DNA of 64,000 nt from an uncultured Pseudomonadota bacterium (GCA_937983055.1 CALJLA010000068.1:784-64783), one strand, 5' to 3'; positions 3,909 through 59,533 are shown, numbered from the stretch's first letter. A program made the numbers and translations. Notes: a model not told the origin generated them from the sequence alone.

Positions 3909-3941
3909 CTTGACCTGACAGTTGGGTACAGGTCGTAGTCT
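3909..3941 (+). promoter_or_regulatory. MerR-type promoter/operator (TTGACC-N20-TAGTCT) facing the SDR-HMBD operon
   Basis: CTTGACCTGACAGTTGGGTACAGGTCGTAGTCT, located 59 bp upstream of the ATG at 4000. It has the same dyad as 3837-3865. Confidence 0.55.
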
Positions 3942-3999
3942 TCCCCGTTTAGCCATCGACGCTTGGCGCTCGATGTCGTTCTGGACCAGGGGATTCAAT

Positions 4000-6913: not shown

Positions 6914-7036
6914 CGTCGACGGCTCCGGTACCGGCGTCCGGCTCGAACGCAAGTGTCTGGCCAGTCTCCCCGAACCGTTAACGCGCCGGCACTCAAGGCC
7001 GGGGCGGCGCCCGGATTCAGCAAAGGAGGATCCACA

Positions 7037-8047
7037 ATGCAACTAGGAATGTTTGGTCTGGGGCGCATGGGCAGCAACATGGTGCGGCGGCTCATGAACG
7101 ACGGGCACGAGTGCGTGGTCTACAACCGCAGCGAAGGCGCCGTTCGACAGCTGCAAAGCGAAGGCGCACTTGGGGTGTTTTCGCTCGAGGAACTGATTGT
7201 CCGCCTGGAGCGCCCCCGCCGCATCTGGTTGATGATTCCGGCTGCCGTCGTCGATGACGTTCTGGCGCGCCTGGTGCCGTTGCTCGACAGCGACGACATC
7301 GTGATCGACGGCGGCAACTCGAATTACCGCGACGATATACGCCGCGGTACCGAACTCGGACAGCAAGGTGTTCATTATCTCGACGTCGGCACCAGCGGCG
7401 GGGTGGCCGGGCTGGAACGCGGCTACTGCCTGATGATCGGCGGCGACACGGACGTCGTCTCGCAGCTCAGCCCGATTTTCGCAAGCCTCGCGCCGGGTGT
7501 CGCGGCGGCAACGAAGACCCCGGGCCGAGGCCCGGGCACGGCGGAGCAGGGCTATCTGCACTGCGGTCCGCACGGCGCAGGGCATTTCGTCAAGATGGTG
7601 CACAACGGCATCGAGTACGGCGTGATGCAGTCCTATGCGGAAGGCTTCAACATTTTGCGCAACGCCAATATCGGCAAGCGCCAGCACGATGTCGATGCTG
7701 AGACCGCGCCAACGCAGGATCCGGCACATTACGCCTACGACTTCGACCTGGCAGAGATCGCCGAGTTGTGGCGCCGCGGCAGCGTTATCGCCTCCTGGCT
7801 GCTCGATCTCACGGCGGCCGCGCTGTTGCGTGATCCGGCCTTGCAGCGTTACGCGGGCCGGGTTTCGGACTCCGGCGAAGGCCGCTGGACCATCACTGCG
7901 GCGATCGAAGAAGGCGTTCCGGCGCCCGTGTTGAGTGCGGCGCTTTATGCCCGGTTCAGCTCACGCGGTGAGGCGGAGTTCGCAAACCAGGTGCTCTCGG
8001 CAATGCGCGAGGGCTTTGGCGGTCACGTCGAAAAGCCGGACGATTGA
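7037..8047 (+). CDS. gnd: 6-phosphogluconate dehydrogenase, decarboxylating (short form)
   Basis: MQLGMFGLGRMGSNMVRRL NAD(P)-binding N-terminus, with YLDVGTSGG and HFVKMVHNGIEYG motifs. An AAAGGAGGA RBS lies upstream. Confidence 0.85.
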   Translation: MQLGMFGLGRMGSNMVRRLMNDGHECVVYNRSEGAVRQLQSEGALGVFSLEELIVRLERPRRIWLMIPAAVVDDVLARLVPLLDSDDIVIDGGNSNYRDDIRRGTELGQQGVHYLDVGTSGGVAGLERGYCLMIGGDTDVVSQLSPIFASLAPGVAAATKTPGRGPGTAEQGYLHCGPHGAGHFVKMVHNGIEYGVMQSYAEGFNILRNANIGKRQHDVDAETAPTQDPAHYAYDFDLAEIAELWRRGSVIASWLLDLTAAALLRDPALQRYAGRVSDSGEGRWTITAAIEEGVPAPVLSAALYARFSSRGEAEFANQVLSAMREGFGGHVEKPDD

Positions 8048-8049
8048 GC

Positions 8050-9432
8050 ATGGACACCCACGACGCCGATGCACTGGTCATATTCGGGGTCACCGGCGAC
8101 CTGGCGTACAAGAAGATCTTTCCGGCCCTGCAGGCGTTGTTCGAGCGCGGCGATCTGAGCCTGCCCGTCGTCGGCGTGGCACGGGGCGGCTGGACCCTGG
8201 AGCGGCTGCGCGAGCGGGTGCGGGCGAGCCTTCGGGAGCATGGCAGCGTCGATGCTGACGCGTTCGCGCGCCTGTCGGCGCAACTGCGCTACGTCGACGG
8301 CGACTATCGCGATCCAGCCACCTACGACCGACTGAAGCAGGCACTGCACGACAGCCAGCGGCCACTGCACTACCTGGCGATCGCGCCGGGGATGTTCGAG
8401 ACCGTGGTGCGGGGGCTGGCGAGCGCCGACTGTTCCCGCCACGCACGCGTCGTGGTCGAGAAGCCGTTTGGCCGCGACCTGGCCTCAGCCCGTGCGCTCA
8501 ACCGCACGCTGCATCAGGTATTCCCGGAAACCGCGGTGTTTCGCATCGATCATTACCTGGGCAAGGAGGCGGTTCAAAACCTGTTGTACTTCCGCTTTGC
8601 CAACACCTTCCTCGAGCCGATTTGGAATCAGCATCACGTCGCTGCTATTCACGTGACCATGGCCGAACGGTTCGGCGTGCAGGGTCGTGGCAAATTTTAC
8701 GAGGAGGTGGGCGCCATTCGCGACGTGGTGCAAAACCACCTGCTGCAGGTCATCGCGCTGCTGACGATGGATGCGCCGACGGGTCGCGATCCGCAAGCGA
8801 CGCGCGCGGAGAAGCTGCGCATTTTGCGTGCGATGCGGCCGGTCGATCCCTCGCAGCTCGTGCGCGGGCAATATCGTGGCTATCGTGACGAGCCCGGCGT
8901 CGCGGGCGACTCCGACGTTGAGACCTTCGCCGCATTTCGCTTGTACATCGACACCTGGCGCTGGTCCGGTGTGCCGATCGTGGTGCGTACCGGCAAATGC
9001 CTGCCGCTGACGGTCACGGAGGTGATCGTGCAGCTGTGCCAGCCGCCGCTCGCCATTTTCGATCCAGTCACGCCGGCAGCGGCAAACTACTTTCGCTTCC
9101 GCTTGAGCCCGGAGGTCGTCATCGCGGCCGGCACGCGCGTCAAGCAACCGGGGGACACCATGCGGGGCGAAGCCGCGGAGTTGATCGCCCGTCACGCACG
9201 CGCCGGGGCCGACCTGCCCTATGAACGGCTATTACGCGATGCCATCCGCGGTGACCCGGCACTGTTTACCCAGGACGAAAGCGTGGAGGCGGCCTGGCAG
9301 GTCGTCGAACCGATGCTCAGGGCGGGTGTGTCGGTAACGGAGTACGAGCCGGACACCTGGGGACCGACCAGGCTGGCGCCACAACCGGAGGGATGGCGAA
9401 ATCCCGAAGCGGAGGCGAGCAAACCGTGTTAA
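8050..9432 (+). CDS. zwf: glucose-6-phosphate 1-dehydrogenase
   Basis: IFGVTGDLAYKKIFPAL and RIDHYLGKE signature motifs. The start overlaps or abuts the gnd stop. Confidence 0.9.
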   Translation: MDTHDADALVIFGVTGDLAYKKIFPALQALFERGDLSLPVVGVARGGWTLERLRERVRASLREHGSVDADAFARLSAQLRYVDGDYRDPATYDRLKQALHDSQRPLHYLAIAPGMFETVVRGLASADCSRHARVVVEKPFGRDLASARALNRTLHQVFPETAVFRIDHYLGKEAVQNLLYFRFANTFLEPIWNQHHVAAIHVTMAERFGVQGRGKFYEEVGAIRDVVQNHLLQVIALLTMDAPTGRDPQATRAEKLRILRAMRPVDPSQLVRGQYRGYRDEPGVAGDSDVETFAAFRLYIDTWRWSGVPIVVRTGKCLPLTVTEVIVQLCQPPLAIFDPVTPAAANYFRFRLSPEVVIAAGTRVKQPGDTMRGEAAELIARHARAGADLPYERLLRDAIRGDPALFTQDESVEAAWQVVEPMLRAGVSVTEYEPDTWGPTRLAPQPEGWRNPEAEASKPC

Positions 9433-9690: not shown

Positions 9691-12060
9691 ATGAGCAAAT
9701 CTACTATTGAAGTCGCGGGACTGCTGTCCGCGTCAAGCGCGGCCGGCGTCGAAAAGCAATTGATGCGACTGCGCGGCGTACGCAAAGCCGAAGTCAATTA
9801 TGTGGCTGGCAGCGCGACCGTCACCTACGACGAAAACGTCATCGATCTCGCGGCAATCAAGGCACAAATTCATGCCTGCGGGTACCACTGCCGGGGGGAG
9901 ATGGTGCCGAAACACATCTGCGCCCCGGCCAATCCGGCCGACGGGCCAACGGCTGCGGTCGCCGATCATCCGGCAACCCATCATCATGACACGCACGCTG
10001 CGCCCGAAGCACAAGGCGACGAGACGGCGGGCATGGCGCACGAAATGGGCCACGGTGGCGGGATGGACATGCAGGCCATGGTGCGCGATATGCGCAAGCG
10101 CTTCTGGGTCTGTTTGGCGTTCACCGTGCCGATCTTCATTTACTCGCCGATGGGGGGGCTGTTCACACCGCCAGCGCCGCCCTTCGGCCTGGACCTCAAC
10201 CTGTGGCTTTTCTTGTTGGCCAGTATCGCGGTCATCTGGCCAAGCTGGCCATTCTTCGTGGCCGCCTGGCGGGCGCTGAAAAACGGTGTCCTCAACATGG
10301 CGGTGCTGGTGGTGCTGTCGGTCGGTACCGGCTACTTGTTCAGTCTCGGGGCGACGTTTTTTTTCGACGGTGTGCAATTCTTCGAGGCGGTGGCGGTACT
10401 GCTGGTGTTCATCCTGCTCGGGCACTGGTTGGAGATGCGCGCTCGCGCCGGCGCCTCCGATGCGATTCGCTCTCTGATGGATCTCGCGCCGCCCAAGGCC
10501 ACCGTGCTGCGCGATGGCCGGGAACTGGAGATACCGACGGCGGAGGTGGCCAAAGACGACATCGTCGTGATCCGGCCCGGCAACAAGATCCCGGTGGACG
10601 GCGAGGTGCTCGAAGGCGAATCCCAGGTGGATGAGTCCATGCTCACCGGCGAATCCATGCCGGTCGGCAAGAAGCCCGGCGACACGGTGATCGGCGCCAC
10701 GATCAACAAAAGCGGCAGTTTCAAGTACCAGGCGACCAAGGTGGGCGCCGATACCGCCCTGGCACAGATCGTCAAGCTGGTACAGGAAGCACAGAACTCC
10801 AAGGCCCCCGCCCAGTTGCTGGCGGACAAAGCCTCGCAATGGCTGGTGGTGATCGCGATTGTCATTGGTCTGCTGACGTTTGCGGCCTGGTTCTGGTGGC
10901 TCGGTCAGACCTTGCTGTTTGCCGTCACTCTTACGATCACGGTATTCGTCATCGCCTGCCCGGATGCTCTGGGCCTCGCCACACCCATGGCGGTGATGGT
11001 AGGCACGGGCCTTGGTGCGAAGAACGGCATTCTGTTCAAGAATGCTTCCGCCCTCGAAGAGGCCACCAAGCTCGATATCGTCGTTTGCGACAAGACCGGT
11101 ACGTTGACCATGGGTGAACCGCAAGTCGTGGAGGTCGTCGCCGGCGATGCCGGCGAGGATGCCGTTCTTAGCCTCGCCGCCACCGTGGAACAAGGCTCGG
11201 ACCATCCACTGGCCCAGGCCATTCAGCGTCGCGCCGAGGGACTCACGCTCTCGCCGCTGCGTGGCTTTGAGAACATTGAGGGCAAGGGTGCGCGCGCCGA
11301 GGTGGACGGTCAAACCGTGTTCCTCGGTAATCGGCGTTTGATGGACGAGGAGGGTGTTGACCTGGCAAGCCTCGCAGACGAGGCGGCTCGCCTGCAGGGC
11401 GCCGGTCAGACCGTGGTGCACATTGCCCACGGCGGCCGCCTGGTGGGACTGATCGCGATCGCCGATGCGCCACGACCGACGGCGGCAGCGATGGTGGCAA
11501 AAATGCGCGAGCGGGGTGTGGAGGTTGCCATGCTCACCGGCGACAATCAGGCGACCGCCGAGCGTATTGCGGGGGAACTCGGTATACAGACGGTGATAGC
11601 CGACGTGTTACCCGCGCAAAAAGCCGACAAGATCAAGGAACTGCAAGCGCAAGGCAAGAAGGTCGGGATGGTCGGCGACGGCGTCAACGATGCGCCAGCA
11701 TTGACCCAGGCGGAGGTTGGATTCGCGATCGGCGCCGGTACCGACGTTGCCATGGAAAGCGCTGACGTCGTGCTCATGAAAAGCGATCCCTATGACGTGC
11801 TTGGCGCTATCGAACTGTCGCGTGCCACGCTGCGCAAGATGCACCAGAATTTGTTCTGGGCGGTGGCGTACAACGTGATTGCCTTTCCGGCGGCGGCTGG
11901 GGTTTTCTATCCACTGGTGATCAGTCCTGAAGTGGCGGCACTTGCGATGTCGGGCAGCTCGGCGTTGGTGGCAGTGAACGCGTTGCTGCTGAAACGCACG
12001 CGCCTGGAGGGCATCCGAACCGTGCGGTCCGCTACCAGCATAGATCCGCAAAGCGACTGA
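9691..12060 (+). CDS. heavy-metal P1B-type ATPase, CopB-like (His-rich N-terminus, CPD transmembrane motif)
   Basis: [15 protein letters not shown], YNxxxxP and MSGSS motifs. The TM motif reads [12 protein letters not shown]. The N-terminal HMA-like fold has SASS in place of CxxC and is followed by a His/Met-rich stretch. Confidence 0.9.
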
Positions 12061-49975: not shown

Positions 49976-50488
49976 ATGAACAAGATGTACGCACGTAGAT
50001 TATCGAATTACTTGGCAACGCTGGTACTCGTCCCGTGCTTGTTTGTGTCGGCTGAACTGCGGGCCGATTCCACGGACGAGTCACGCATCGTCGAGATCAT
50101 CGATGCGATAGAGCGGGGCTGGGAGACCGCGGACGGTACGCCGTTTCGGGAGCATTTTCTCGATTTCGATGGCGCCCGATACATAGAAAGCGGCGGCCAG
50201 AACGCCGGCCTGAGCGATCTCATCGACAATCATGTCGAACCGGAAGGCGACGCGCTCGATTCGCTGGAGCTGAACTTTTCGAACATCGAGGTGCATTGGG
50301 AGGGGCCCTTCGCCTGGGCTGTCGCCGATACGGAAGTGATCGCCGTCGTCAAAGCCGACAAGCGGCGCATTCACAATCGTGGCTATCAGACATTTCTGTT
50401 TCGTGCCGTCGACGACGACTGGAAGGTAATTCACACGCACAGCTCGTCGCGACCGGTCAAAAAAGAGGGCGACAATCATGAACACTGA
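49976..50488 (+). CDS. exported SnoaL/DUF4440-like (NTF2-fold) protein with C-terminal NHEH
   Basis: Signal peptide, and the pattern IIDAIERGWETAD...WKVIHTHSS typical of DUF4440/SnoaL-like proteins. The tail reads EGDNHEH. Confidence 0.55.
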   Translation: MNKMYARRLSNYLATLVLVPCLFVSAELRADSTDESRIVEIIDAIERGWETADGTPFREHFLDFDGARYIESGGQNAGLSDLIDNHVEPEGDALDSLELNFSNIEVHWEGPFAWAVADTEVIAVVKADKRRIHNRGYQTFLFRAVDDDWKVIHTHSSSRPVKKEGDNHEH

Positions 50489-50566: not shown

Positions 50567-51166
50567 ATGAGAAACAAGCCCAAGCAATTGAGTAGCCCAT
50601 CCGGGCTGACGGCCGTGTCGGCCGCCTTCGTGGAACACAGCGCGTTCCTCAGGAAGTACCTGGCGCGCTACTTCTCGGATCGGCAGGATATTGAAGATGT
50701 GGCGCAAGAGGCCTATTTGCGTGCCTACGTCGCCGAGCAGCAAAAGGACATCGAGCAGCCGAAAGCCTTTCTCTTTCGTATCGCGAAGAACGTTGCGCTT
50801 ACGAAACTGACCAGGAAGTCAAGACAAATCACCGATTATCTTGAGGAAACGGGCGCTTCGCTGGTTATAGACTGTGAAAGTTCCGCGGAACAGGCGGCGA
50901 CGGCCGAAGAATCGCTGGGCCTTTACTGCGAGGCGGTGGCATCGCTGCCAGACAAGTGCAGGCAGGTATACTTGCTGCGCAAAGTCCATGGCCTGGCTCA
51001 CAAGGAGATTGCGGAAAGAATGTCCCTGTCGGTAAGTTCAGTGGAGAAGTACCTGCTGCGCGGCGTTCTGGAGTGCCGGGCGTTCGTGCTGGCTCGTGGA
51101 GGCGATGAGACATTGGTAGGCAGGAATCAGGGTGTACCGACCAGGTGCAAGAAGGGTGCGCAATGA
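50567..51166 (+). CDS. ECF sigma factor (FecI-like)
   Basis: Region 2 (DIEDVAQEAYLRAY; FLFRIAKNVAL) and region 4 (HKEIAERMSLSVSSVEKYL). Confidence 0.85.
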   Translation: MRNKPKQLSSPSGLTAVSAAFVEHSAFLRKYLARYFSDRQDIEDVAQEAYLRAYVAEQQKDIEQPKAFLFRIAKNVALTKLTRKSRQITDYLEETGASLVIDCESSAEQAATAEESLGLYCEAVASLPDKCRQVYLLRKVHGLAHKEIAERMSLSVSSVEKYLLRGVLECRAFVLARGGDETLVGRNQGVPTRCKKGAQ

Positions 51167-52290
51167 CTGACCGAATTGTCGAGTTTCCCGATCGCCGCGC
51201 AATTGCCGAGGAGGCTGCGACATGGCTGATTCGCCTGGATGCCGACGATGCGCCGACCCAGGTAGACATCGCGGCGCTTCAGGAGTGGCTGAGCCGCAGT
51301 CCCGTGCATCGCGAGGAACTCCAGAGCCTCGCGGTACTGTGGGAAAAGATGAACGTCCTGACCGAGCTTGCTGTGCCGCTGGCCAGGCCCGCCGGCCAAT
51401 CGGCGAGCCATACTCGATTGTTGTCTGTGCAGGCTGCGCTGGCGTCAGTGGCATTCGTCGCATTTGTGATATCGATCGGGATTGCTGCCCTGTTCTGGCA
51501 AAGCACGTCATCTTTTCACGAATCGAACGGCCTGTTCGCGACCGCGATCGGCCAGCAGCAGACGACAACACTGTCCGACGGCTCCGTCGTTGTCCTCAAT
51601 ACCGACAGCCAGATCGAGGTCAACTATCATGCAGAATTCCGCGACATTCGCTTGCTGCGTGGCGAAGCGCATTTTACGGTTGCTGATAACAGCGACCAAC
51701 CGTTTCGTGTATTCGCCGGCACCGGCCGGGTGCAGGCGATTGGCACGGCATTCTCTGTGTATCTGAAAGAACAGAGCATTGATGTAACCGTTACGGACGG
51801 TCGGGTTTCGTTGGCTACACTAAACGAACACCGCGCCGCTAGCGGGTTGTCGACAGTTGTTGATCATGTGGAACCACAGGCGTCAGGATCGGTTGAGACA
51901 GAGATCGACGACTACCTCGAGGCGGTTGTAGCGCTGAGCGCCGGGCAAAGCGCGACGATAAAGACCGGTCCGGACTCCGAATCGAACGCCCGGAGTATTC
52001 AGGAAAGCGTGCGGACGATCCCATCTCAGGATCTGGCCAAGAAACTGGCGTGGCGCGATGGCATGCTGTCCTTCGCAGGAGATCCACTGGAATTGGTCGT
52101 CAGCGAGATCAGCCGATACACGCCAATCACGATCGAAATTGCCGATCCGGCAATCCGTGCAACGCGCATCGGTGGGCAGTTTCCGGTCGGACAGACGGAG
52201 GCCATGTTCGACGCGCTCGAGGCAAATTTCGGGTTGCGTGTTACGCGTTTGAGCCGTGATCGTGTCGTGCTATCTGCCGCAAACGAGTAA
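51163..52290 (+). CDS. FecR-family anti-sigma factor
   Basis: The N-terminus AATWLIRLDADD...LQEWL, one TM segment and a periplasmic FecR domain. ATGA overlap with the sigma gene. Confidence 0.85.
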   Translation: MTDRIVEFPDRRAIAEEAATWLIRLDADDAPTQVDIAALQEWLSRSPVHREELQSLAVLWEKMNVLTELAVPLARPAGQSASHTRLLSVQAALASVAFVAFVISIGIAALFWQSTSSFHESNGLFATAIGQQQTTTLSDGSVVVLNTDSQIEVNYHAEFRDIRLLRGEAHFTVADNSDQPFRVFAGTGRVQAIGTAFSVYLKEQSIDVTVTDGRVSLATLNEHRAASGLSTVVDHVEPQASGSVETEIDDYLEAVVALSAGQSATIKTGPDSESNARSIQESVRTIPSQDLAKKLAWRDGMLSFAGDPLELVVSEISRYTPITIEIADPAIRATRIGGQFPVGQTEAMFDALEANFGLRVTRLSRDRVVLSAANE

Positions 52291-52411: not shown

Positions 52412-55400
52412 ATGTTCAAGTTTTATTGCGGCTTTCCGGTCCTCGGTAGTTATCTGATTGACAAGTCCGATCGGGTACATCGACAGAGGAACTGCGTGTC
52501 CGGACGGGTTGTTGGGGGAACGCAACATCGGGCTGCCCGCGTGACGCGATGGTTGGCGAGTTGGCTGATGGTGGCCATGCTGAGTACCGCGAGCATCGCC
52601 GCCGAGCCGTCCGGTGAGCCGTTGTTTGACATTGACATACCGCCCTTGAATGCGGCGGAGGCGTTGAACCGCCTTGCCAAACAAACCGGCGCAATCATGC
52701 TTTTCCCCTACGACCTGGCTGAATCTCGACAAGCCAACGCAGTATCGGGTCGATATTCGTTGAGCGATGCTTTGGAGCTGCTCCTGCGGGACTCGGGACT
52801 CTCGAGCGGACTGTCGGACAAACGTGTGATTCAGATCTACGTTGCTGAAGAGACAGAACGTGACACCGAGGTGGGGGACGACATGAATACGAGAAAGAAG
52901 ACAGGTTTGGTAGCGATGCTGGCGAGCGTGTTCAGCGTCAGTGCGAGCGCACAGGATTCGGGGACCCTGGCGGGCGATGGCAATACCGTCGAAGAAGTGG
53001 TCGTGACGGGCAGTCGCATTGCCCGAAAAGACCTCAACAGCGTCGGGCCCATGACGATAATCGGCGCTCCGGAAATCGAAGCGACGGGCGTCACGTCGCT
53101 CGAAGTGCTGCTGCAGCGACTACCGTCATCGGCTGGCTTTGGCGGCAATCAGACATCGGCGTACTGGGTGTCGAACGGCTGGGGTACGCCACAGATCAAC
53201 CTGCGGGGCATGGGCATCAACCGCACGCTGGTTCTGCTGAACGGAAGACGAATCGTCGCCGGCGGGACCGGTGCGAATACCTCCGTGGATCTGAGCATGA
53301 TCCCGGTTTCGATCATCGAGCAGATCGAGGTGCTCAAGGACGGCGCATCGGCCATCTATGGCGCTGACGCGGTCGCCGGCGTTGTCAATATCATTACCAA
53401 GAAGAACTTCGAGGGCGTCGAAGCCGCGGTCAAGGCCGGTGCGGCGTTCGAGGGCGATGGCGAGGAGTTACAGCTCGACCTGACCTGGGGCGTCACAAAC
53501 GAACGTGGCAGCCTGATGGCCAACATCAGCTATCAGGATGCAGACGAGGTTTACATGCCTGACCGTGTCGACTGCCCCCGGTCCGAGGTCAATGGCCAGC
53601 TCGTTTGCTTCGGCAGCAGCAGTACTACGGGCGGCCGGGCGCTCTTGCCCGACGGAACGCGCATAAACTTCAACCAGGATCCCAATGGCAGCGGTGACGA
53701 TTTCGCAATTTACGATCCGTTGATTCACAACTTCGACTTCAATCAGTCGTTCAACGCCGTCAATCCCCTGGAACGCCTGTCGTTTTCGGCATTCGGCAAT
53801 CACGAGTTGACGGACCGGGTCGGCATATTCGGCGAGGTCATGTACACAAATCGACAGACCGACCAGCCTGCCTCACCGACCACTATCAGGAACATCTTTT
53901 TCGACGCCAGCCACCCGACCAATCCGACCGGCGAGGACGTATTCCTGGAAAATCGGCGCATCGCCGAAAGTGGCGACCGGCAGTTTTTCCAGGAAACAGA
54001 TACCTGGCGCGTGGTTGCCGGGCTCGATGGCGAGTTCTCCGATACGTGGAGCTGGGATGTTTCCTACAACTGGGGGCGCAATACCGGTATCGATGGCTCA
54101 ACGAACATCGTCAATCTGCTAAGGCTCAACGAAACGCTGGATACCTCGATCTGTGGAACGGGCGGTATCCCCTGTGCCGATATCCTGGGCCTCGGCGACG
54201 TAACACAGGAGGTCATGGACTACATTCTGTTCACGATGGTCGGTACCGGTGGCAACGAGCAGACGAGCATCTCGGCCAACGTGTCGGGCGAATTGTTCGA
54301 TCTGCCGGCCGGCCCGGTATTGCTCGCCGCTGGCTACGAGAACAGGAACGACAAGGGCTGGCGCAACCCGGATTCACTGGTAATTATTGGCGCCGCCAAT
54401 ACGAATGCGGCCGACCCGATTTCGGGTACGGTCAAGTCCGACGAGTTCTACGTGGAAGCGAGCTTGCCGATTCTCGTCGATGCGCCGCTTGCCCGAAACC
54501 TCAACCTCGACTTGGCGTTTCGATTCTCGGACTATGAAACCTTTGGCAGCGACGACAACTTCAAGATCGGCCTCAACTGGCAGATCATTGATGATCTGAA
54601 GATTCGTGCGAATCTGTCGACCGCGTTCAGAGTGCCGAACGTCAATGAACTGTTCGGCGGCGTCGCTGAGGGCAACCTGACGACGACCGATCCATGTTCG
54701 GGCTGGAGCGATCTGGATCCCAGTAACGTCGTCTACCAGAATTGCCAGGCCGACGGCGTTCCTGTGGGCTTCATGCAGCTCGGCAACACGATCCTGACAA
54801 CGGTGGGTGGCAATACTGCGCTCGAACCCGAGAGTGCCGACACGTTTACTCTTGGAGTCGTCTATGAACCGTCGTTCCTGGAAGGTCTGGCGCTGACACT
54901 CGACTACTATGACATCGAAATCGAGGACGCGATTACGCAAATTCCCGGTTCGACCAAGCTCGATGTTTGCTACAACACGCCGAATCTTGCGCATGAATTT
55001 TGTTCGCCAGCGCACTTTACGCGGAGCTCGTTGAGCGGAGACGTCAATTTCCTGTCGGCGCAACCCGTCAACTCGGGGCTGGAAACCATCAAGGGCATTG
55101 ATTTCGGGCTGACCTACAACTTCGACCTGATGGATTTGCCTGCTGCTTTCGATTTCAAGACGACGCTGTTGAACGAGTACGAGATCACGCCGTTTTCCGG
55201 TGCGGCACCTATCGTTCTGGATGGACACATTGGTGGCGGTAACGGAGGCTATTCTCGTTTTCGCTCTTACATGTCGCTGAATGTCGGTGCGGAAAGATGG
55301 GGCGGAACCTATTCCGTACAGGTCATCGGTGATGGTGACGACTTCAATGCTGAGCCACCAGCGATCGGTGCGGAGATCGATTCCGTTGTCTACCATTATT

Positions 55401-55573
55401 TGCAGGCGACGTATGAATTCTCTGACAGCATGCGGCTTGCAGTCGGAATCGACAATCTGTTCGACGAGGGCGCCCCTTACGTCGCGTCCTGGACGGATGC
55501 CAATACCGATACGATGACCTACGACCTCACCGGGCGGCGTGGCTACGCTCGGCTGACGTACCGCTGGCAGTAA
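52412..55573 (+). CDS. TonB-dependent transducer (STN signalling domain + plug + 22-strand barrel)
   Basis: STN region (IPPLNAAEALNRLAKQTGAIMLFPYD) and plug (VVVTGSRI...IEVLKDGASAIYGADAVAGVVNIITKK), with a C-terminal barrel ending TYRWQ. The start is uncertain. Confidence 0.85.
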   Translation: MFKFYCGFPVLGSYLIDKSDRVHRQRNCVSGRVVGGTQHRAARVTRWLASWLMVAMLSTASIAAEPSGEPLFDIDIPPLNAAEALNRLAKQTGAIMLFPYDLAESRQANAVSGRYSLSDALELLLRDSGLSSGLSDKRVIQIYVAEETERDTEVGDDMNTRKKTGLVAMLASVFSVSASAQDSGTLAGDGNTVEEVVVTGSRIARKDLNSVGPMTIIGAPEIEATGVTSLEVLLQRLPSSAGFGGNQTSAYWVSNGWGTPQINLRGMGINRTLVLLNGRRIVAGGTGANTSVDLSMIPVSIIEQIEVLKDGASAIYGADAVAGVVNIITKKNFEGVEAAVKAGAAFEGDGEELQLDLTWGVTNERGSLMANISYQDADEVYMPDRVDCPRSEVNGQLVCFGSSSTTGGRALLPDGTRINFNQDPNGSGDDFAIYDPLIHNFDFNQSFNAVNPLERLSFSAFGNHELTDRVGIFGEVMYTNRQTDQPASPTTIRNIFFDASHPTNPTGEDVFLENRRIAESGDRQFFQETDTWRVVAGLDGEFSDTWSWDVSYNWGRNTGIDGSTNIVNLLRLNETLDTSICGTGGIPCADILGLGDVTQEVMDYILFTMVGTGGNEQTSISANVSGELFDLPAGPVLLAAGYENRNDKGWRNPDSLVIIGAANTNAADPISGTVKSDEFYVEASLPILVDAPLARNLNLDLAFRFSDYETFGSDDNFKIGLNWQIIDDLKIRANLSTAFRVPNVNELFGGVAEGNLTTTDPCSGWSDLDPSNVVYQNCQADGVPVGFMQLGNTILTTVGGNTALEPESADTFTLGVVYEPSFLEGLALTLDYYDIEIEDAITQIPGSTKLDVCYNTPNLAHEFCSPAHFTRSSLSGDVNFLSAQPVNSGLETIKGIDFGLTYNFDLMDLPAAFDFKTTLLNEYEITPFSGAAPIVLDGHIGGGNGGYSRFRSYMSLNVGAERWGGTYSVQVIGDGDDFNAEPPAIGAEIDSVVYHYLQATYEFSDSMRLAVGIDNLFDEGAPYVASWTDANTDTMTYDLTGRRGYARLTYRWQ

Positions 55574-55587
55574 GGACACGGGTAGCG

Positions 55588-55613
55588 TGCGGGGCGGCGG
55601 CTGCCGCCCCGCA
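55588..55613 (+). terminator. GC-rich hairpin after the receptor gene
   Basis: TGCGGGGCGGC-ggct-GCCGCCCCGCA, an 11-bp perfect stem with no clear T-tract. Confidence 0.45.
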
Positions 55614-55681
55614 GTGAGCGAAGTGCGCTCTGCTGCGTGGGTACCAAGCGTGAGTCACACAATGCAATCAGGAATAAAATC

Positions 55682-56446
55682 ATGAAAGCGCCGTTTCTTG
55701 CGCGCAAGGCCCACAAGTGGCTCGCATTGATTGTCGGTATTCAGGCCATGTTCTGGATGGTCAGCGGCGCTTACATGGCAACGGTGGACATCGACTTCAT
55801 CCATGGCGATCCCCTGGTCAAGAACGTCGTTGAGCCTGTCGGAAAGGATCTGGCCGAGCTCTATCCCATGAGCGACATTCTCGAACGATATCCGCAGGCC
55901 ACCCGGGTTCAGTTCATAGCGCGACGCGGCGACCCGCACTATATCGTCAAGACTGCGCAGGGCAGTACCCTTCTGGACGCCACAACTGGAGCGGAACGCA
56001 CGCCGATCGATCGCAGTGAGGCCATGGCGCTGGCCACGCACTACTACGCCGGCGATGGCGAGATCATTGCTGCTGTATTGCTTGACGACAGTGATGCCCG
56101 GCCAACCGAGATCCAGTCACGGCCATTGCCGCTCTGGCAGGTGCGATTCGACGACCGGATTGAAACGACTTTCTATGTATCGCCGACGACAGGAGAGCTG
56201 ATTACTCGCCGCCACACATTCTGGCGGCTATACGATTTCTTGTGGATGTTCCACATCATGGATTACGAGAATCGAACGGACTTCAATAATAATTTACTCA
56301 GAGTGGCCGCGTTCGTCGGACTCCTGTTTGCGTTGACCGGTGTCTGGCTCCTGTTCTACAGCCTGAAGAAGCGCCAGCAGGCGGTCATACCGGTCGATGA
56401 CTCGAACATTGGTGATAGAAGTGATCTGGTTCCGAAGACTCCATAA
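55682..56446 (+). CDS. PepSY-domain membrane protein (PepSY_TM-like, 2 TM)
   Basis: N-terminal AHKWLALIVGIQAMFWMVSG helix, a periplasmic domain of about 170 aa, and a C-terminal FLWMFHIMDY...TGVWLLFYSL helix. Confidence 0.65.
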   Translation: MKAPFLARKAHKWLALIVGIQAMFWMVSGAYMATVDIDFIHGDPLVKNVVEPVGKDLAELYPMSDILERYPQATRVQFIARRGDPHYIVKTAQGSTLLDATTGAERTPIDRSEAMALATHYYAGDGEIIAAVLLDDSDARPTEIQSRPLPLWQVRFDDRIETTFYVSPTTGELITRRHTFWRLYDFLWMFHIMDYENRTDFNNNLLRVAAFVGLLFALTGVWLLFYSLKKRQQAVIPVDDSNIGDRSDLVPKTP

Positions 56447-58274
56447 GTGGATCGGACTTGCGATCGGAATCCAGGTGGGCATCTGGATGTTGAGTGGTCT
56501 TATGATGGGCCTGCTCGACCACGAACACGTTCAGGGACATCACTACCAGGCGGTCGCCGACGTCATGCCGGTTTCGGCATCTTCGCGCAATGTGCTGAGC
56601 GTCGGCGATATTCTCGAGCGAGCCGCTTCGGCTGCGCCGATCTTCGATATTTCACTGAGATCGCATCTTGGTCGTGCTGCATACCAGGTAAAAAATGCCG
56701 GCGGATCGCAGCTGTTCGATGCAACGTCCGGCAGCCGAATCGTCGTTACAGCCGAGGATGCCGCGGCACTGGCGGGGCAGGACTACTCGGGGCCCGGACA
56801 GATCGTGTCGATCGAACCGGTTCAGGCACCGAGCATGGAGATCCGCCGGCATTCGGGCGACGCATGGCGCGTTGCGTTCGACGACGATGACGCGACGACG
56901 TTATACATCGCGGCCGATGACGGGAGAATTCTCGAGCGTCGCAATGATACGTGGCGACTTTTTGATGTGTTCTGGATGCTGCACATCATGGACTACAAGG
57001 AGCGGGAAGATTTCAATAATGCCCTCGTCATTCTGGTTTCACTGATTGCTGCCTGGTTCTCGATCACGGGCGTGGTCCTGTTCTTCGATAGCTTTCGACG
57101 CGAGGATTTTCTTGCATTGGTGCCGGGCGGTTGGTGGCGATCTCCGGCGCAAATCGCGGTGTGCGCGCCGCACGGCGAGGTTGTCGCACGCGTGAGTTCG
57201 CACGTCGGTGGCCGTCTCTACGACGAATTGGCCAGGGACGACATTGTATTGCCGTCAAACTGCGGAGGTGGCGGAACGTGCGGGCTCTGCGTCGTAAACC
57301 TCGGACCGGACTGGCCTGAGTCGGCGGCCGATCGTCGCTTGTTGTCAGAGTCGCAACGAAAAAAGGGAATCCGGTTGTCCTGTCAAGCCGAAGTTGCGAG
57401 CGATATGGTTGTTGGAATATCCGACGACGTGCTGTCGGCACAGGAACTCACAGCCGAGGTAGCCGAATGTCGTTTCCTGACGCCGTTTATCCGCGAAATT
57501 CGTCTGCGGCTACCTGAGAACGACTTTGACTATGCGGCCGGTTCCTATGTCCACGTAATAATTCCACGGTACAAGCTTGAGTACGCGAAGCTAGGGTTGA
57601 CGTCCGAAGCTAGCAGATCGTGCGAGGCGGTCGGTGCCCAGGTCACCAACGTCAACAAGTCCGAAACTCGGCGGGCATACTCTTTGGCGACACCGTGCGA
57701 GCAGGAGCGCGGAACGATCGTGCTCAATGTACGACTGATGGTGCCGCCGGAGGGTAGCCAGGCGCTGCCGGTGGGCGTCGGATCCACATATATGTGGTCA
57801 CTCCAGCCCGGGGACAAATTGGACATCGTCGGCCCACTGGGCGATTTCAGGGCTCGAGAGTCCAATGCGGATATGATCTTTGTTGGTGGCGGCGCCGGCA
57901 TGGCACCGCTTCGTGCCATTATACGAAGCGAGCTCCTGTACAAGCAGAGCGGCAGAAAAATTGACTTCTGGTACGGTGCCCGCACCCGGGCAGATCTATT
58001 CTACGCAAGAGAATTCGATGAGCTACAAGGTCAACACCCGAATTTCCGATGGCAACCCGTGCTGTCGGAGCCACTGTCGGTGGACGGCTGGCAGGGCCCC
58101 ACAGGATTCGTCCATGCCGTTGCCCTGCAGGATCTGATCGGCCAGGACCGGGACTTCGGAGCCTGTGAATTCTATGTTTGCGGCCCGCCGCCGATGCTCG
58201 CGGCAACCCGTAGAATGCTGGCTGAAAAAGGGGTTCCAGAGAACAGCGTCTTTTTCGACGATTTCGGGATCTAG
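56397..58274 (+). CDS. fusion protein: PepSY_TM-like module + plant-type 2Fe-2S ferredoxin + FAD/NAD(P)H reductase (NqrF-like)
   Basis: The N-terminal half is paralogous to 55682-56446 (LHKWIGLAIGIQVGIWMLSG; VFWMLHIMDY). It is followed by CGGGGTCGLC...LSCQ, RAYSLAT and FVGGGAGMAPL. The true start may be a GTG around 56412-56421. Confidence 0.75.
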   Translation: MTRTLVIEVIWFRRLHKWIGLAIGIQVGIWMLSGLMMGLLDHEHVQGHHYQAVADVMPVSASSRNVLSVGDILERAASAAPIFDISLRSHLGRAAYQVKNAGGSQLFDATSGSRIVVTAEDAAALAGQDYSGPGQIVSIEPVQAPSMEIRRHSGDAWRVAFDDDDATTLYIAADDGRILERRNDTWRLFDVFWMLHIMDYKEREDFNNALVILVSLIAAWFSITGVVLFFDSFRREDFLALVPGGWWRSPAQIAVCAPHGEVVARVSSHVGGRLYDELARDDIVLPSNCGGGGTCGLCVVNLGPDWPESAADRRLLSESQRKKGIRLSCQAEVASDMVVGISDDVLSAQELTAEVAECRFLTPFIREIRLRLPENDFDYAAGSYVHVIIPRYKLEYAKLGLTSEASRSCEAVGAQVTNVNKSETRRAYSLATPCEQERGTIVLNVRLMVPPEGSQALPVGVGSTYMWSLQPGDKLDIVGPLGDFRARESNADMIFVGGGAGMAPLRAIIRSELLYKQSGRKIDFWYGARTRADLFYAREFDELQGQHPNFRWQPVLSEPLSVDGWQGPTGFVHAVALQDLIGQDRDFGACEFYVCGPPPMLAATRRMLAEKGVPENSVFFDDFGI

Positions 58275-58802: not shown

Positions 58803-59192
58803 ATGAATATGGAGACACGAGAAACTCGCGTGACTTGGTTGGCGTTATTTGCGTCAACCGGCACCCTGATCTGTTGTGCGCTGCCAATCGCATTCGTTGC
58901 ACTCGGTCTCGGGGCGACAGTCGCGGCAATTTCATCCAGCTTTCCGATATTGGTTTCGATAGCCCAACACAAGGCCTGGGTCTTTACCGGCGCCGCCGTG
59001 CTTCTTGTATTGACGGGCTGGCTCCTGTTCCGCTCGGGTCGCGAGTGCCCCGCAGATCCAGAACTTCAGGCTGCGTGCGATCGAGTCCTGATGTGGAATC
59101 GTCGAATTTTCTGGATAGCCGTTGCCATCTGGGCGATCGGGTTTTTCGCGGCCTATGCAGCACTACCGCTGCGGATCTGGTTGGAAGGCTGA
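58803..59192 (+). CDS. MerT-like three-TM metal transporter
   Basis: TM1 carries a vicinal pair in LICCALP, as in the MerT CC motif. The loop between TM2 and TM3 has a second Cys pair (RECPADPELQAAC). Confidence 0.55.
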   Translation: MNMETRETRVTWLALFASTGTLICCALPIAFVALGLGATVAAISSSFPILVSIAQHKAWVFTGAAVLLVLTGWLLFRSGRECPADPELQAACDRVLMWNRRIFWIAVAIWAIGFFAAYAALPLRIWLEG

Positions 59193-59230
59193 TGACTCGA
59201 ATGAAAATCGAAATCGTATTGGAGAGTGAG

Positions 59231-59533
59231 ATGCGGAAGATAGTGCCGTTGGTGTTGAGTCTTGTCTTCATGTCGACGGTTGCCTTTGCCACAGAGCATC
59301 AGGTCGTGGAGATCGAGGTGACTGGGCTTGCGTGCCCGTTTTGTGCCTACAGCGTGGAGAAAAGCATCAAGAAGTTGCCGGGAGTTAATTGCGTCCAGGT
59401 TGATCTGGCAAACGGTGAGGTTCGAATTGAAATGCGGGCCGACCATACAGTCGATCTCGAGCAGGTCAAGCACGCGATCCTCAACGCCGGGTTCACTCCC
59501 GGTGAGGCGACAATGTCTACGGTCGACGAGTAG
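59231..59533 (+). CDS. periplasmic HMA-domain protein (MerP-like)
   Basis: Signal peptide followed by VTGLACPFCAYSVEKSI (CxxC HMA motif). A GGAGAG RBS lies upstream. Confidence 0.75.
   Translation: MRKIVPLVLSLVFMSTVAFATEHQVVEIEVTGLACPFCAYSVEKSIKKLPGVNCVQVDLANGEVRIEMRADHTVDLEQVKHAILNAGFTPGEATMSTVDE

What the first reader, a model, noticed from the sequence alone, without database searches (positions are those of the whole stretch)
55682..58274. A PepSY_TM-like protein and a paralogous PepSY_TM::2Fe-2S::FAD/NAD(P)H (NqrF-like) fusion form a candidate NOX/FRE-style transmembrane reductase
The two adjacent proteins share the same two-helix plus periplasmic-domain module. The first has xHKWLALIVGIQAMFWMVSG ... 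FLWMFHIMDYENRTDFNN and the second has LHKWIGLAIGIQVGIWMLSG ... VFWMLHIMDYKEREDFNN. Each helix carries a conserved His. The second protein continues on the cytoplasmic side into a plant-type ferredoxin (CGGGGTCGLC...C), an FAD-binding RAYSLAT motif and an NAD(P)H-binding GGGAGMAPL motif. This is the NqrF/FNR arrangement. The topology would allow NAD(P)H to feed FAD, then 2Fe-2S, then possibly His-ligated haem in a four-helix PepSY_TM heterodimer, and finally a periplasmic substrate. PepSY_TM proteins such as FoxB have been proposed as periplasmic ferric-siderophore reductases whose electron donor is unknown. A covalent fusion to a complete NAD(P)H reductase would supply that missing donor. The location directly after a TonB-dependent transducer fits reduction of an imported metal chelate (Fe(III), or Cu(II) given the island context).
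Basis: partly seen in the sequence, partly recalled or inferred. Interest (0 to 1): 0.75.

Follow-up and report, generated by a model that had tools for sequence, protein, structure and literature searches.

The report
Split NADH-driven PepSY membrane metal reductase
Two adjacent genes after an outer-membrane import receptor most likely encode the two halves of a haem-carrying membrane enzyme with its own NADH-reductase module, which would pass electrons from NAD(P)H inside the cell to an imported metal (copper or iron) in the periplasm; it is an uncharacterised variant of a known reductase family and is widely mislabelled as a sodium-pump subunit.

Summary
P1 (55682-56446, 254 aa) and the first ~240 aa of P2 (56397/56421-58274) are paralogues (38% identity, E 3e-48). 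Each is TM, PepSY domain, TM, and each carries the PepSY_TM signature of a His before each TM helix and an (S/T)G motif within it. P2 continues into a complete NqrF-type 2Fe-2S/FAD/NAD module with invariant cofactor motifs.

The fusion is not an artefact; it has over 1000 homologues. About 840-aa relatives are colinear P1+P2 single chains, which supports a P1:P2 heterodimer equivalent to the four-helix, two-haem FoxB. Gene order receptor, P1, P2 is conserved across phyla: P1 directly upstream in 75/75 loci, receptor in 58/71.

The substrate is unresolved. There is no Fur-box signal. Copper-homeostasis genes lie within 10 kb in 36/61 loci, sometimes as cusCBA-copA-P1-P2 operons, and the window is a copper/mercury island. 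I therefore rate Cu(II) slightly above Fe(III) chelate.

PepSY proteins with NAD-binding domains have already been noted bioinformatically (Meheust 2021; Josts 2021). This is a new, uncharacterised variant, not a new kind. Haem binding and activity are untested, and the Foldseek match to FoxB is weak.

The parts
49976..50488 (+). SnoaL-like 170-aa protein with a signal-like N-terminus. It precedes the sigma factor gene and recurs near copper genes in 7 related loci. Its membership of the system is uncertain.
   Evidence: Pfam SnoaL_3; cluster c16; same gene order on the public contig L081.
50567..51166 (+). ECF sigma factor.
   Evidence: Pfam Sigma70_r2, Sigma70_r4_2 and Sigma70_ECF. Present only in the Woeseiaceae-type loci L001 and L004.
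51145..52290 (+). FecR-type anti-sigma / signal transducer.
   Evidence: Pfam DUF4880 + FecR.
52412..55573 (+). TonB-dependent receptor with an N-terminal signalling extension (1053 aa by the public gene call; the maximal ORF starts at 52256). It belongs to one strongly conserved orthologous family.
   Evidence: Pfam Plug + TonB_dep_Rec_b-barrel, with a weak STN hit. P0241 is 100% identical at 1053 aa. 51-77% identity across phyla and adjacent to P1-P2 in 58 of 71 loci. Four invariant Cys pairs, plus H553, H913, H1047 and M1087.
55582..55636 (+). GC-rich stem-loop between the receptor gene and P1, with no T-tract. It may act as an mRNA stabiliser or attenuator that sets the receptor:reductase expression ratio (inferred).
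   Evidence: RNA fold -42.1 kcal/mol, z = -3.1, with 0 of 200 shuffles folding as well; sequence.
55682..56446 (+). P1, the first PepSY_TM half: TM1 (about aa 14-32), a periplasmic PepSY domain, then TM2 (about aa 204-229). Proposed haem ligands are H11 (cytoplasmic face) and H191 (periplasmic face). (S/T)G motifs are S28-G29 and T219-G220. Invariant periplasmic residues include H41 (IHGD), E143 and H178.
   Evidence: AF2 model with pLDDT 84 shows helix, alpha/beta domain, helix. The PepSY fold is confirmed by Foldseek (2gu3, prob 0.99).
56397..57116 (+). P2 N-terminal part, the second PepSY_TM half. The likely true start is GTG 56421. TM1 is about aa 18-40 and TM2 about aa 205-233. Proposed haem ligands are H16 and H196. 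(S/T)G motifs are S33-G34 and T224-G225.
57201..57395 (+). P2 plant-type 2Fe-2S ferredoxin domain (aa 269-333), tethered to TM2 by a linker of about 30 aa. Cluster ligands are C289, C295, C298 and C329.
   Evidence: Pfam Fer2. The four Cys are 100% conserved and align with the NqrF cluster cysteines. Variants carrying only this domain exist in L013 and L059.
57429..57848 (+). P2 FAD-binding domain (about aa 345-484) with an invariant R426-x-Y428-S429.
   Evidence: Pfam FAD_binding_6; NqrF alignment; conservation.
57879..58274 (+). P2 NAD(P)H-binding domain (aa 495-625) with an invariant G497-G-G-A-G501 and C595-G-P.
   Evidence: Pfam NAD_binding_1, 68 bits; conservation. Foldseek on the single-chain relative gives NqrF FAD/NAD domains at TM-score 0.83-0.85 normalised to the target.

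Best explanation
P1 and P2 are the two halves of a split FoxB-type (PepSY_TM) membrane reductase that carries its own electron-input module.

Each half contributes two transmembrane helices and one periplasmic PepSY domain. Together they would form the four-helix bundle that holds two b-type haems in FoxB. One haem would sit near the cytoplasmic face, ligated by P1-H11 and P2-H16. The other would sit near the periplasmic face, ligated by P1-H191 and P2-H196.

The C-terminus of P2 is the soluble part of an NqrF-type reductase, tethered to the cytoplasmic end of its second helix. Electrons would flow NAD(P)H, FAD, 2Fe-2S, cytoplasmic haem, periplasmic haem, and then to a metal substrate held under the PepSY domains.

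The substrate is delivered by the co-conserved TonB-dependent receptor. It is most likely a single chemically conserved species. I rate Cu(II) or a Cu(II) complex slightly ahead of an Fe(III) chelate. In this window, expression is probably switched on by the receptor's own ECF-sigma/FecR signalling pathway.

Shown: domain content, conservation of ligand and cofactor residues, topology, paralogy, the existence of single-chain relatives, and the gene linkage.

Inferred: heterodimer formation, haem binding, direction and path of electron flow, and the substrate.
For: Domains and cofactor motifs.

PepSY_TM signature of a His before each TM helix and an (S/T)G motif within it, as defined in PMC10866019, is met on all four helices. 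PF03929 is hit by 52/55 P1-type and 16/16 P2-type members.

Basic residues flank the cytoplasmic His (R8/K12 in P1, R13/K17 in P2). This resembles the R10/K373 pair that holds the cytoplasmic haem propionates in FoxB.

Rosetta-stone evidence: 12 relatives of about 840 aa are P1-like followed by P2-like, colinear. Their AF2 model (pLDDT 86) has the order TM, PepSY, TM, disordered loop, TM, PepSY, TM, Fer2, FNR. The third-helix His lies about 10 residues after the loop, as H198 does in FoxB.

P1 lies directly upstream of P2 in 75/75 loci with overlapping ends, and the receptor is adjacent in 58/71.

The C-terminal extensions are modular (none, Fer2 only, or Fer2-FAD-NAD), which places the 2Fe-2S domain next to the membrane part.

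Topology by hydropathy and the positive-inside rule.

Copper lean: Cu-homeostasis genes lie within 10 kb in 36/61 loci. The pair follows cusC-cusB-cusA(-copA) directly on the same strand in L013, L056, L045, L027 and L047. The window is a Cu/Hg island. There is no Fur-box enrichment. Invariant Met residues surround the periplasmic His on both halves. There is published precedent for receptor + PepSY_TM pairs in copper handling: OprC-PA3789 (PMC8610252) and CrtA-CrpH (PMC12914433, PMC13038864).
Against: No experiment exists for any member of this family.

A sequence profile of the half-domain does not reach FoxB in the PDB. Foldseek with the P1 model finds FoxB only at rank 14 (E 0.14, prob 0.23). 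The link to FoxB therefore rests on Pfam PF03929, the motif signature and the domain order.

In the models the periplasmic His sits at the end of a short helix that precedes the TM helix by about 11 residues, with lower pLDDT. A periplasmic metal site, in place of a second haem, cannot be excluded.

The heterodimer could not be modelled, and no coordinates were available to measure cofactor distances.

The receptor lacks the OprC CxxxM-HxM copper site. Its database names are generic.

ECF/FecR/receptor signalling units are classically iron-uptake devices.

A copper importer and reductase inside a resistance island lacks an obvious rationale.
Confidence: 0.65

Rival explanations
1. Same machine, but the substrate is an Fe(III) chelate or xenosiderophore imported by the receptor. 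Reduction releases Fe(II) in the periplasm for uptake by a ferrous transporter, as with FoxB, FpvG, FsrB, HiuB and FhuB.
For: All biochemically or genetically characterised PepSY_TM reductases act on ferric siderophores. ECF sigma / FecR / receptor-with-signalling-domain units are typical of iron uptake. JGI annotates some P1 homologues as 'iron-regulated membrane protein'.
Against: There is no Fur-box enrichment upstream of the receptor genes or in the window. No siderophore biosynthesis, ferrous transporter or other iron gene appears among the conserved neighbours. Copper and hut genes dominate the neighbourhoods instead. The receptor and the periplasmic residues are conserved across phyla, which suggests one universal substrate and not diverse siderophores.
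Confidence: 0.28
2. The reductase serves copper efflux, not acquisition. It converts periplasmic Cu(II) to Cu(I), the only form that CusCBA exports.
For: P1-P2 directly follow cusC-cusB-cusA (and the copA ATPase) on the same strand, with abutting ends and no receptor, in L013, L056, L045, L027 and L047. The window and many loci are copper-resistance neighbourhoods.
Against: Most loci (58/71) pair the reductase with an importer. Cu(I) is the more toxic form, and the same islands encode multicopper oxidases that do the reverse reaction. No experiment supports the idea.
Confidence: 0.12
3. P2 is a genuine NqrF subunit of the Na+-translocating NADH:quinone reductase, as NCBI and JGI label its homologues.
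For: It scores above the curated TIGR01941 cut-off (329.6 vs 295) and is about 40% identical to V. cholerae NqrF over the soluble part.
Against: The NqrF membrane anchor is replaced by a 240-aa PepSY_TM half. No nqrA-E genes lie in the window or in any of the 80 loci. The conserved partners are a receptor and a PepSY half.
Confidence: 0.02
4. P1 and P2 do not pair. P2 forms a homodimer (four helices, two reductase modules), and P1 is a separate homodimeric PepSY protein or a regulator.
For: The halves are paralogous, so homodimers are sterically conceivable. CrpH was suggested to possibly form homodimers.
Against: Single-chain relatives always join a P1-type half to a P2-type half in that order. 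The two genes are adjacent in 75/75 loci with overlapping ends. Each half has its own invariant periplasmic residues, such as IHGD in P1 only.
Confidence: 0.08
5. A NOX-like enzyme whose physiological acceptor is O2, producing periplasmic superoxide, and not a metal.
For: The electron path NAD(P)H, flavin, two haems, extracytoplasmic acceptor is analogous to NOX. The FNR domain resembles the SpNOX dehydrogenase domain in fold (rank 42).
Against: Strict linkage to a TonB-dependent importer and to metal-homeostasis genes. The conserved periplasmic PepSY cavity residues imply a bound substrate.
Confidence: 0.04

Closest known systems
FoxB of Pseudomonas aeruginosa (PDB 7ABW) and other four-helix PepSY_TM / COG3182 reductases (FpvG, FsrB, HiuB, FhuB of Burkholderia)
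   Same: Pfam PF03929. A PepSY domain flanked by two TM helices, repeated twice. A conserved His before each helix and an (S/T)G motif within it. Basic residues next to the cytoplasmic His. The gene sits next to a TonB-dependent receptor. The proposed role is periplasmic metal reduction through two b haems.
   Different: Here the unit is split into two genes, each a half. It carries a fused NAD(P)H/FAD/2Fe-2S input module, whereas the FoxB donor is still called unknown (PMC13038864). It is too divergent for a sequence profile to reach FoxB. It has a family-specific W-M-x-H-I-M-D-Y motif and a highly conserved periplasmic face. There is no iron-regulation signal.
PepSY-like genes with an NAD-binding domain (Meheust et al. 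2021, PMC8238504) and COG3182-sulfite reductase fusions (Josts et al. 2021; PiuB/Brucella type with flavodoxin-FAD-NAD, PMC9045290)
   Same: The same concept: a PepSY_TM membrane part covalently joined to an NAD(P)H-dependent reductase, taken to mean that cytosolic NAD(P)H is the donor. It is described from sequence only.
   Different: Those reports give counts or one-line mentions. The CysJ-like type uses flavodoxin (FMN) as the last carrier, whereas here it is an NqrF-type 2Fe-2S ferredoxin domain. The Meheust set was defined by proximity to flavinylation genes (ApbE, DUF2271), which are absent here. In the held literature I found no description of the split two-gene form, its single-chain counterpart or its dedicated receptor.
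NqrF, the NADH-oxidising subunit of Na+-NQR (e.g. PDB 8A1T chain F)
   Same: The 2Fe-2S ferredoxin, FAD and NADH domains are homologous end to end (E 1.7e-74). All cofactor motifs are kept. As in NQR, the ferredoxin domain would hand electrons to a redox centre inside the membrane.
   Different: The N-terminal anchor helix is replaced by a PepSY_TM half. There are no NqrA-E partners. The acceptor would be a haem, not the NqrD/E iron centre. The database label 'NqrF' is a misannotation.
OprC-PA3789 (P. aeruginosa) and CrtA-CrpH (Bordetella pertussis) copper receptor + PepSY_TM pairs
   Same: A TonB-dependent receptor gene followed by a PepSY_TM gene, in a copper-homeostasis setting. Periplasmic Cu(II) reduction is proposed but unproven.
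   Different: The receptor family is different: there is no CxxxM-HxM site, and there are eight invariant Cys, whereas CrtA has none conserved. The PepSY part is split and fused to a reductase. The CrpH periplasmic cavity is poorly conserved, while this one is strongly conserved.
Eukaryotic and bacterial NOX / FRE / STEAP-type transmembrane reductases
   Same: They work alike: cytosolic NAD(P)H, flavin, two stacked bis-His haems across the membrane, and an extracytoplasmic acceptor (O2, Fe(III), Cu(II)).
   Different: The membrane domain is unrelated (no Ferric_reduct six-helix domain). There is an extra 2Fe-2S step. The assembly has two chains. It is an analogue, not a homologue.

Membership tests
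PepSY_TM / COG3182 (FoxB-type membrane reductases) | Match to Pfam PF03929 above the gathering score | tested here: met
   P1 scores 29.7 and P2 32.2 bits against a cut-off of 28.8. 52/55 P1-type and 16/16 P2-type family members match. The window proteins are only just above the cut-off.
PepSY_TM / COG3182 (FoxB-type membrane reductases) | A highly conserved His N-terminal to each TM helix and an (S/T)G motif near the C-terminal end of each helix (PMC10866019) | tested here: met
   P1 has H11...S28-G29 and H191...T219-G220. P2 has H16...S33-G34 and H196...T224-G225. His conservation is 94-100% and Gly 97-100%.
PepSY_TM / COG3182 (FoxB-type membrane reductases) | Four TM helices and two periplasmic PepSY domains, each domain flanked by two helices | tested here: inconclusive
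   Each window protein supplies one TM-PepSY-TM unit. The full 4-TM / 2-PepSY order is seen in single-chain relatives. Assembly of P1 with P2 is inferred, not tested.
PepSY_TM / COG3182 (FoxB-type membrane reductases) | Detectable sequence or fold similarity to the solved FoxB structure 7ABW | tested here: inconclusive
   The sequence profile gives no hit at E <= 10. Foldseek with the P1 model gives 7abw_B at rank 14, E 0.14, prob 0.23, while PepSY-domain proteins score prob 0.99. The search with the single-chain model was swamped by FNR hits.
PepSY_TM / COG3182 (FoxB-type membrane reductases) | Binds two b-type haems and reduces a periplasmic metal substrate | not testable with these tools
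   Needs spectroscopy and enzyme assays.
NqrF (TIGR01941), subunit F of Na+-NQR | HMM score above the curated cut-off, and the 2Fe-2S, FAD and NADH motifs | tested here: met
   329.6 bits against 295. C289/C295/C298/C329, RxYS and GGGxG are invariant.
NqrF (TIGR01941), subunit F of Na+-NQR | A single N-terminal anchor helix, and encoded in an nqrABCDEF operon | tested here: not met
   The match starts at NqrF residue 40-45. The N-terminus is a 240-aa PepSY_TM half. No nqr genes lie in the window or in the 80 loci. It is therefore not filed as NqrF.
NOX / FRE ferric-reductase-domain superfamily | Six-helix Ferric_reduct domain (PF01794) with FAD_binding_8 / NAD_binding_6 | tested here: not met
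   No such Pfam hits. The resemblance is functional only.
CysJ-type (sulfite-reductase-like) PepSY_TM fusions, PiuB type | Flavodoxin (FMN) domain between the membrane part and the FAD/NAD domains | tested here: not met
   There is no Flavodoxin_1 hit; a Fer2 domain takes that position.
OprC / NosA TonB-dependent copper receptors | CxxxM (plug) and HxM (barrel) copper site (PMC8610252) | tested here: not met
   The only conserved Cys are four pairs in the barrel region (C440/451, C633/640, C814/830, C905/916). There is no plug Cys. TIGR01778 is not among the top NCBIfam hits.
Cell-surface-signalling receptor (FecA-type transducer) | N-terminal STN signalling domain, plus adjacent FecR and ECF sigma genes | tested here: inconclusive
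   FecR and the ECF sigma are present and adjacent. STN scores 20.2 bits, below the 28.4 cut-off. A 74%-identical homologue carries a precomputed PF07660 hit (P0258). The extension is absent from most orthologues.

The most novel reading that the evidence does not exclude
The receptor-P1-P2 cassette is a phylum-spanning, self-powered copper module. The receptor imports one defined Cu(II) complex, possibly Cu(II)-histidine. The NADH-driven split PepSY reductase reduces it to Cu(I) at a Met/His-lined periplasmic site. The metal is then handed on, to cuproenzyme assembly or to CusCBA for export, and the released ligand is catabolised by the neighbouring hut genes. This would be the first defined electron donor for a PepSY_TM reductase and the first link between copper trafficking and histidine utilisation.
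Probability: 0.15. Interest if true: 0.8.

Novelty: new variant of a known kind. Interest (0 to 1): 0.6.

Why it matters
PepSY_TM proteins number about 195,000 in NCBI (PMC13038864). They are now accepted as periplasmic metal reductases that act downstream of TonB-dependent import. Their electron donor is still described as unknown, and a copper-linked member (CrpH) could not be produced for biochemistry.

A natural version with the donor module covalently attached answers the donor question for this branch. It would be self-sufficient, needing only NAD(P)H, and would suit in vitro work on electron transfer and substrate specificity.

The split and fused forms give a built-in test of how the four-helix haem bundle assembles.

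In practical terms, at least 531 species genomes hold a relative of the PepSY half, and the fusion proteins in those that carry the reductase module are commonly labelled 'NqrF'. That label can mislead metabolic reconstructions into inferring a sodium-pumping NQR.

The recurrent linkage to copper-efflux and histidine-utilisation genes points to a metal-trafficking step that is not yet described.

Tried and rejected
- Sequence search of P1, and of a profile of the half-domain, against PDB sequences to obtain a residue-level alignment with FoxB. There was no FoxB hit at E <= 10.
- Foldseek with the 841-aa single-chain model. The top 50 hits were all NqrF/FNR-type proteins, so FoxB could not be assessed.
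- Foldseek with the P1 half model. It confirmed the PepSY fold but gave only a weak FoxB hit.
- A first combined alignment (A2) placed the P2-type halves on the wrong half of the long forms and was discarded. A3, without the P1 family, aligned contiguously and was used.
- Fur-box scan upstream of the receptor genes and in the window. Mismatch counts matched background, so there is no support for iron regulation. Fur boxes do differ between lineages.
- Search for the OprC copper site in the receptor: absent.
- Homologue search with the receptor, hoping for an informative name: only generic names.
- Promoter and terminator consensus scans across the cassette were at chance level.
- Assembly artefact or missing stop: rejected, because independent public contigs and over 1000 homologues have the same two-gene structure.
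- Frameshifted long-form gene: rejected, because the two-gene form is the majority (89 of 120 best hits are 600-624 aa; 96 are 600-649 aa) and includes the closest relatives.
- Four literature searches for this specific NqrF-type or split architecture found only the general statements in PMC8238504 and the FoxB preprint.


Full report
THE OBSERVATION

The region holds two overlapping ORFs on the + strand. P1 runs 55682-56446 (254 aa). Its ATG follows an AGGAA ribosome-binding site, and the identical 254-aa protein is called on independent public contigs. P2 runs 56397-58274 (625 aa). Most homologues are 617 aa and begin MIWFRRLHKW, so GTG 56421 is the likelier start. Either start overlaps the end of P1, which suggests translational coupling.

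P1 and the first 235 residues of P2 are 38% identical (E 3e-48), so the 'same module twice' observation is real.

Pfam finds PepSY_TM and PepSY in both proteins, and Fer2, FAD_binding_6 and NAD_binding_1 in P2. NCBIfam scores P2 residues 267-624 above the curated cut-off for NqrF (329.6 vs 295). The best solved relative is V. cholerae NqrF (E 1.7e-74), aligned from NqrF residue 40, which is everything except its membrane anchor.

Upstream on the same strand lie an ECF sigma factor, a FecR-type protein and a TonB-dependent receptor with an N-terminal extension.

NOT AN ARTEFACT, AND THE TWO PROTEINS BELONG TOGETHER

The P2 architecture has over 1000 homologues. Most are about 615 aa and come from Woeseiaceae, Microbulbifer, Hyphomonas, Kordiimonas, Lysobacter, Pseudoxanthomonas, Massilia and others. 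NCBI and JGI usually name them 'NqrF'.

Twelve of the best 120 hits are about 840 aa. BLASTP shows that these are colinear fusions of a P1-like half (residues 1-230, 39-49% identity to P1) and a P2-like protein (35-44%). Each window protein matches its own half better than the other half. This is classic Rosetta-stone evidence that P1 and P2 act as one unit.

A scan of one genome per species found relatives in at least 531 species and returned 80 loci. In those loci:
- P1 is directly upstream of P2 in 75 of 75 loci with enough sequence.
- An orthologous receptor (51-77% identical) is directly upstream in 58 of 71.
- The NqrF-type part follows the second half in 67 of 73.

No other gene is universally conserved.

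ANATOMY AND CONSERVED RESIDUES

Hydropathy gives two TM helices per half. Lys/Arg cluster at the N-terminus and after the second helix, so both ends of each half, and the reductase module, face the cytoplasm.

Across more than 100 homologues each:
- P1 keeps H11 (97%) and H191 (100%).
- P2 keeps H16 (94%, the rest being N-terminally truncated gene calls) and H196 (99%).
- The 2Fe-2S ligands C289/C295/C298/C329, the FAD motif R426-x-Y-S and the NAD motif G497-G-G-x-G are invariant.

The Burkholderia FhuB paper defines the PepSY_TM helix signature as a conserved His N-terminal to each helix and an (S/T)G motif near its C-terminal end (PMC10866019). All four helices here meet it (H11...S28-G29, H191...T219-G220, H16...S33-G34, H196...T224-G225).

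Basic residues next to the cytoplasmic His (R8/K12 in P1, R13/K17 in P2) recall R10/K373, which hold the cytoplasmic haem propionates in FoxB.

Family-specific features:
- The invariant W-M-x-H-I-M-D-Y around the periplasmic His on both halves.
- A conserved Met at the periplasmic end of the first helix of each half (P1 M32, 99%; P2 M37, at least 90%).
- Many invariant periplasmic residues, such as P1 I-H41-G-D, E143, H178 and D185, and P2 E180-R-R and D190.

STRUCTURE PREDICTION

An AF2 model of the single-chain relative P0054 has mean pLDDT 86. It shows helix 2-34, an alpha/beta domain, helix 202-231, a disordered loop 236-247, helix 248-281, an alpha/beta domain, helix 449-472, and then the ferredoxin and FNR domains. 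This is the domain order described for FoxB.

The third-helix His (H258, equivalent to P2 H16) lies about 10 residues after the loop, as H198 does in FoxB.

Foldseek on this model returns NqrF (E 4.5e-36 for full NqrF chains). For the isolated NqrF FAD/NAD-domain structures (E about 5e-29), the TM-score normalised to the target is 0.83-0.85. FNR-type hits fill the whole list.

The model of P1 alone (pLDDT 84) matches PepSY-domain structures (YpmB, prob 0.99). It matches FoxB only weakly (rank 14, E 0.14, prob 0.23). A sequence profile does not reach FoxB at all.

Membership of the FoxB-type family therefore rests on three things: Pfam PF03929 (52/55 and 16/16 family members), the motif signature, and the domain order. 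It does not rest on a direct match to 7ABW.

MODULAR EVOLUTION

A search of 1.84 billion representative proteins with the half-domain profile found 531 representatives at E <= 1e-30 and 1477 at E <= 1e-10.

Lengths and motifs show every combination of one or two halves with no extension, a Fer2 domain only, or Fer2-FAD-NAD. The Fer2-only forms (for example L013 and L059) show that the ferredoxin domain is the element that docks onto the membrane part. This fits the proposed order NAD(P)H, FAD, 2Fe-2S, haem, haem.

WHAT IS REDUCED

The receptor family is strongly conserved across Alpha-, Beta- and Gammaproteobacteria and Rhodothermales. It has four invariant Cys pairs and a few invariant His/Met residues, but not the OprC copper site. 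Its database names are generic.

I found no Fur-box enrichment upstream of the receptor genes, nor in the window.

The neighbourhoods are informative. Of 61 loci with at least 15 kb:
- 36 carry copper-homeostasis genes within 10 kb: CusA/CzcA-type RND, a CusB-like adaptor, an outer-membrane factor, a copper P-type ATPase, and a CopA-type multicopper oxidase with CopB.
- 24 carry histidine-utilisation genes. The annotations were checked with NCBIfam.

Among the 13 loci without an adjacent receptor, the P1-P2 pair directly follows cusC-cusB-cusA (and copA in some) on the same strand, with abutting ends, in L013, L056, L045, L027 and L047.

The window itself is a copper/mercury island. It holds two P-type ATPases, CusS, two multicopper oxidases, an outer-membrane efflux protein, a CDF transporter, two MerR regulators, MerT and MerP.

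Receptor + PepSY_TM pairs have already been proposed to handle copper: OprC-PA3789 (PMC8610252) and CrtA-CrpH (PMC12914433, PMC13038864).

I therefore put Cu(II) or a Cu(II) complex slightly ahead of an Fe(III) chelate. The evidence is contextual only. All biochemically characterised family members act on ferric siderophores, and ECF/FecR/receptor units are classically iron devices.

COMPARISON WITH WHAT IS KNOWN

The general idea is published. Meheust et al. counted 1077 PepSY-like genes with a PF00175 NAD-binding domain and inferred cytosolic NADH as donor (PMC8238504). Josts et al. noted COG3182-sulfite reductase fusions. A Brucella flavoproteome survey lists a PepSY_TM + flavodoxin-FAD-NAD cluster.

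As of 2026 the donor for FoxB-type enzymes is still called unknown.

In four literature searches I found no description of the following:
- the NqrF-derived (2Fe-2S) type of fusion;
- its split two-gene form and the matching single-chain form;
- its dedicated receptor family;
- its copper and hut neighbourhoods.

P2 is not an NqrF. It fails the anchor and operon criteria, so the common database label is a misannotation. It is not a NOX/FRE homologue either, because it has no Ferric_reduct domain. It only works like one.

VERDICT

This is a new, uncharacterised variant of a known kind of enzyme. Haem binding, the heterodimer, the nucleotide preference and the substrate remain to be shown.

Its main value is as a naturally self-sufficient model for PepSY_TM reductases and as a lead into an undescribed copper-trafficking (or iron-trafficking) step.

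Noticed in passing
L003, L005, L006, L008, L009, L019, L020, L025, L029, L030, L033-L036, L052, L057, L058, L062 (and others); not in the window: Histidine-utilisation genes (hutC, hutU, hutH, hutI, hutF, hutG) flank the receptor-P1-P2 cassette in many unrelated lineages and in different arrangements. hutC is often directly adjacent. The count is 24 of 61 loci with at least 15 kb. In Hyphomonas L011, L017, L023 and L041, P1-P2 directly follow hutU with no receptor. This suggests a functional or regulatory link, for example a metal-histidine substrate.
   Followed up: partly
L013:1033-11032, L056:3289-10687, L045:3123-11794, L027:2349-11842, L047:181-11782: In loci that lack the receptor, P1-P2 sit at the end of an apparent cusC-cusB-cusA(-copA ATPase) operon, on the same strand with abutting or overlapping gene ends. 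This is operon-level linkage of the reductase to Cu(I) efflux.
   Followed up: partly
L013:10001-11032, L059:9992-11032; L056:9962-10687, L063:9992-10717; representatives P0361-P0503: Architectural series within the family: the second half alone (about 241 aa), the half + 2Fe-2S domain only (about 345 aa), the half + full NqrF module (about 615 aa), two fused halves with none, Fer2 or the full module (about 475 / 570 / 840 aa).
   Followed up: yes
window 55582-55636: A very stable GC-rich stem-loop (-42.1 kcal/mol, z -3.1) with no T-tract lies between the receptor stop codon and P1. It may be an mRNA-processing, stability or attenuation element.
   Followed up: partly
window 3922-5331, 5303-6913, 6953-9432, 9691-12060: Unusual metal-island content. 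An NAD-dependent epimerase with C-terminal heavy-metal-binding domains, and a VKOR + SPW-repeat protein with an N-terminal heavy-metal-binding domain, are followed by 6-phosphogluconate and glucose-6-phosphate dehydrogenases (NADPH supply) and a copper-type P-type ATPase.
   Followed up: no
window 49976-50488; L001:856-1368; also L033, L050, L065, L077: A secreted-looking SnoaL-like 170-aa protein precedes the ECF sigma gene here. It recurs near copper genes in 7 loci. Its function is unknown.
   Followed up: no
window 58803-59192 and 59192-59533: Directly downstream of P2 lie a 129-aa membrane protein with no family hit and a 113-aa HMA-domain protein. The same pair follows P2 on public contigs L081 and L082.
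   Followed up: no
L067, L071, L077 (Microbulbifer): Small Cys/His-rich proteins of about 145 aa (cluster c28) flank the cassette on both sides in Microbulbifer. M. magnicolonia carries two copies of the whole cassette (L071 and L077).
   Followed up: no
Homologues P0005, P0063-P0120 etc.: NCBI and JGI annotate most P2 homologues, and even one P1 homologue (P0160), as 'Na(+)-translocating NADH:ubiquinone reductase subunit F'. The TIGR01941 model scores them above its cut-off, so this is a systematic misannotation.
   Followed up: yes
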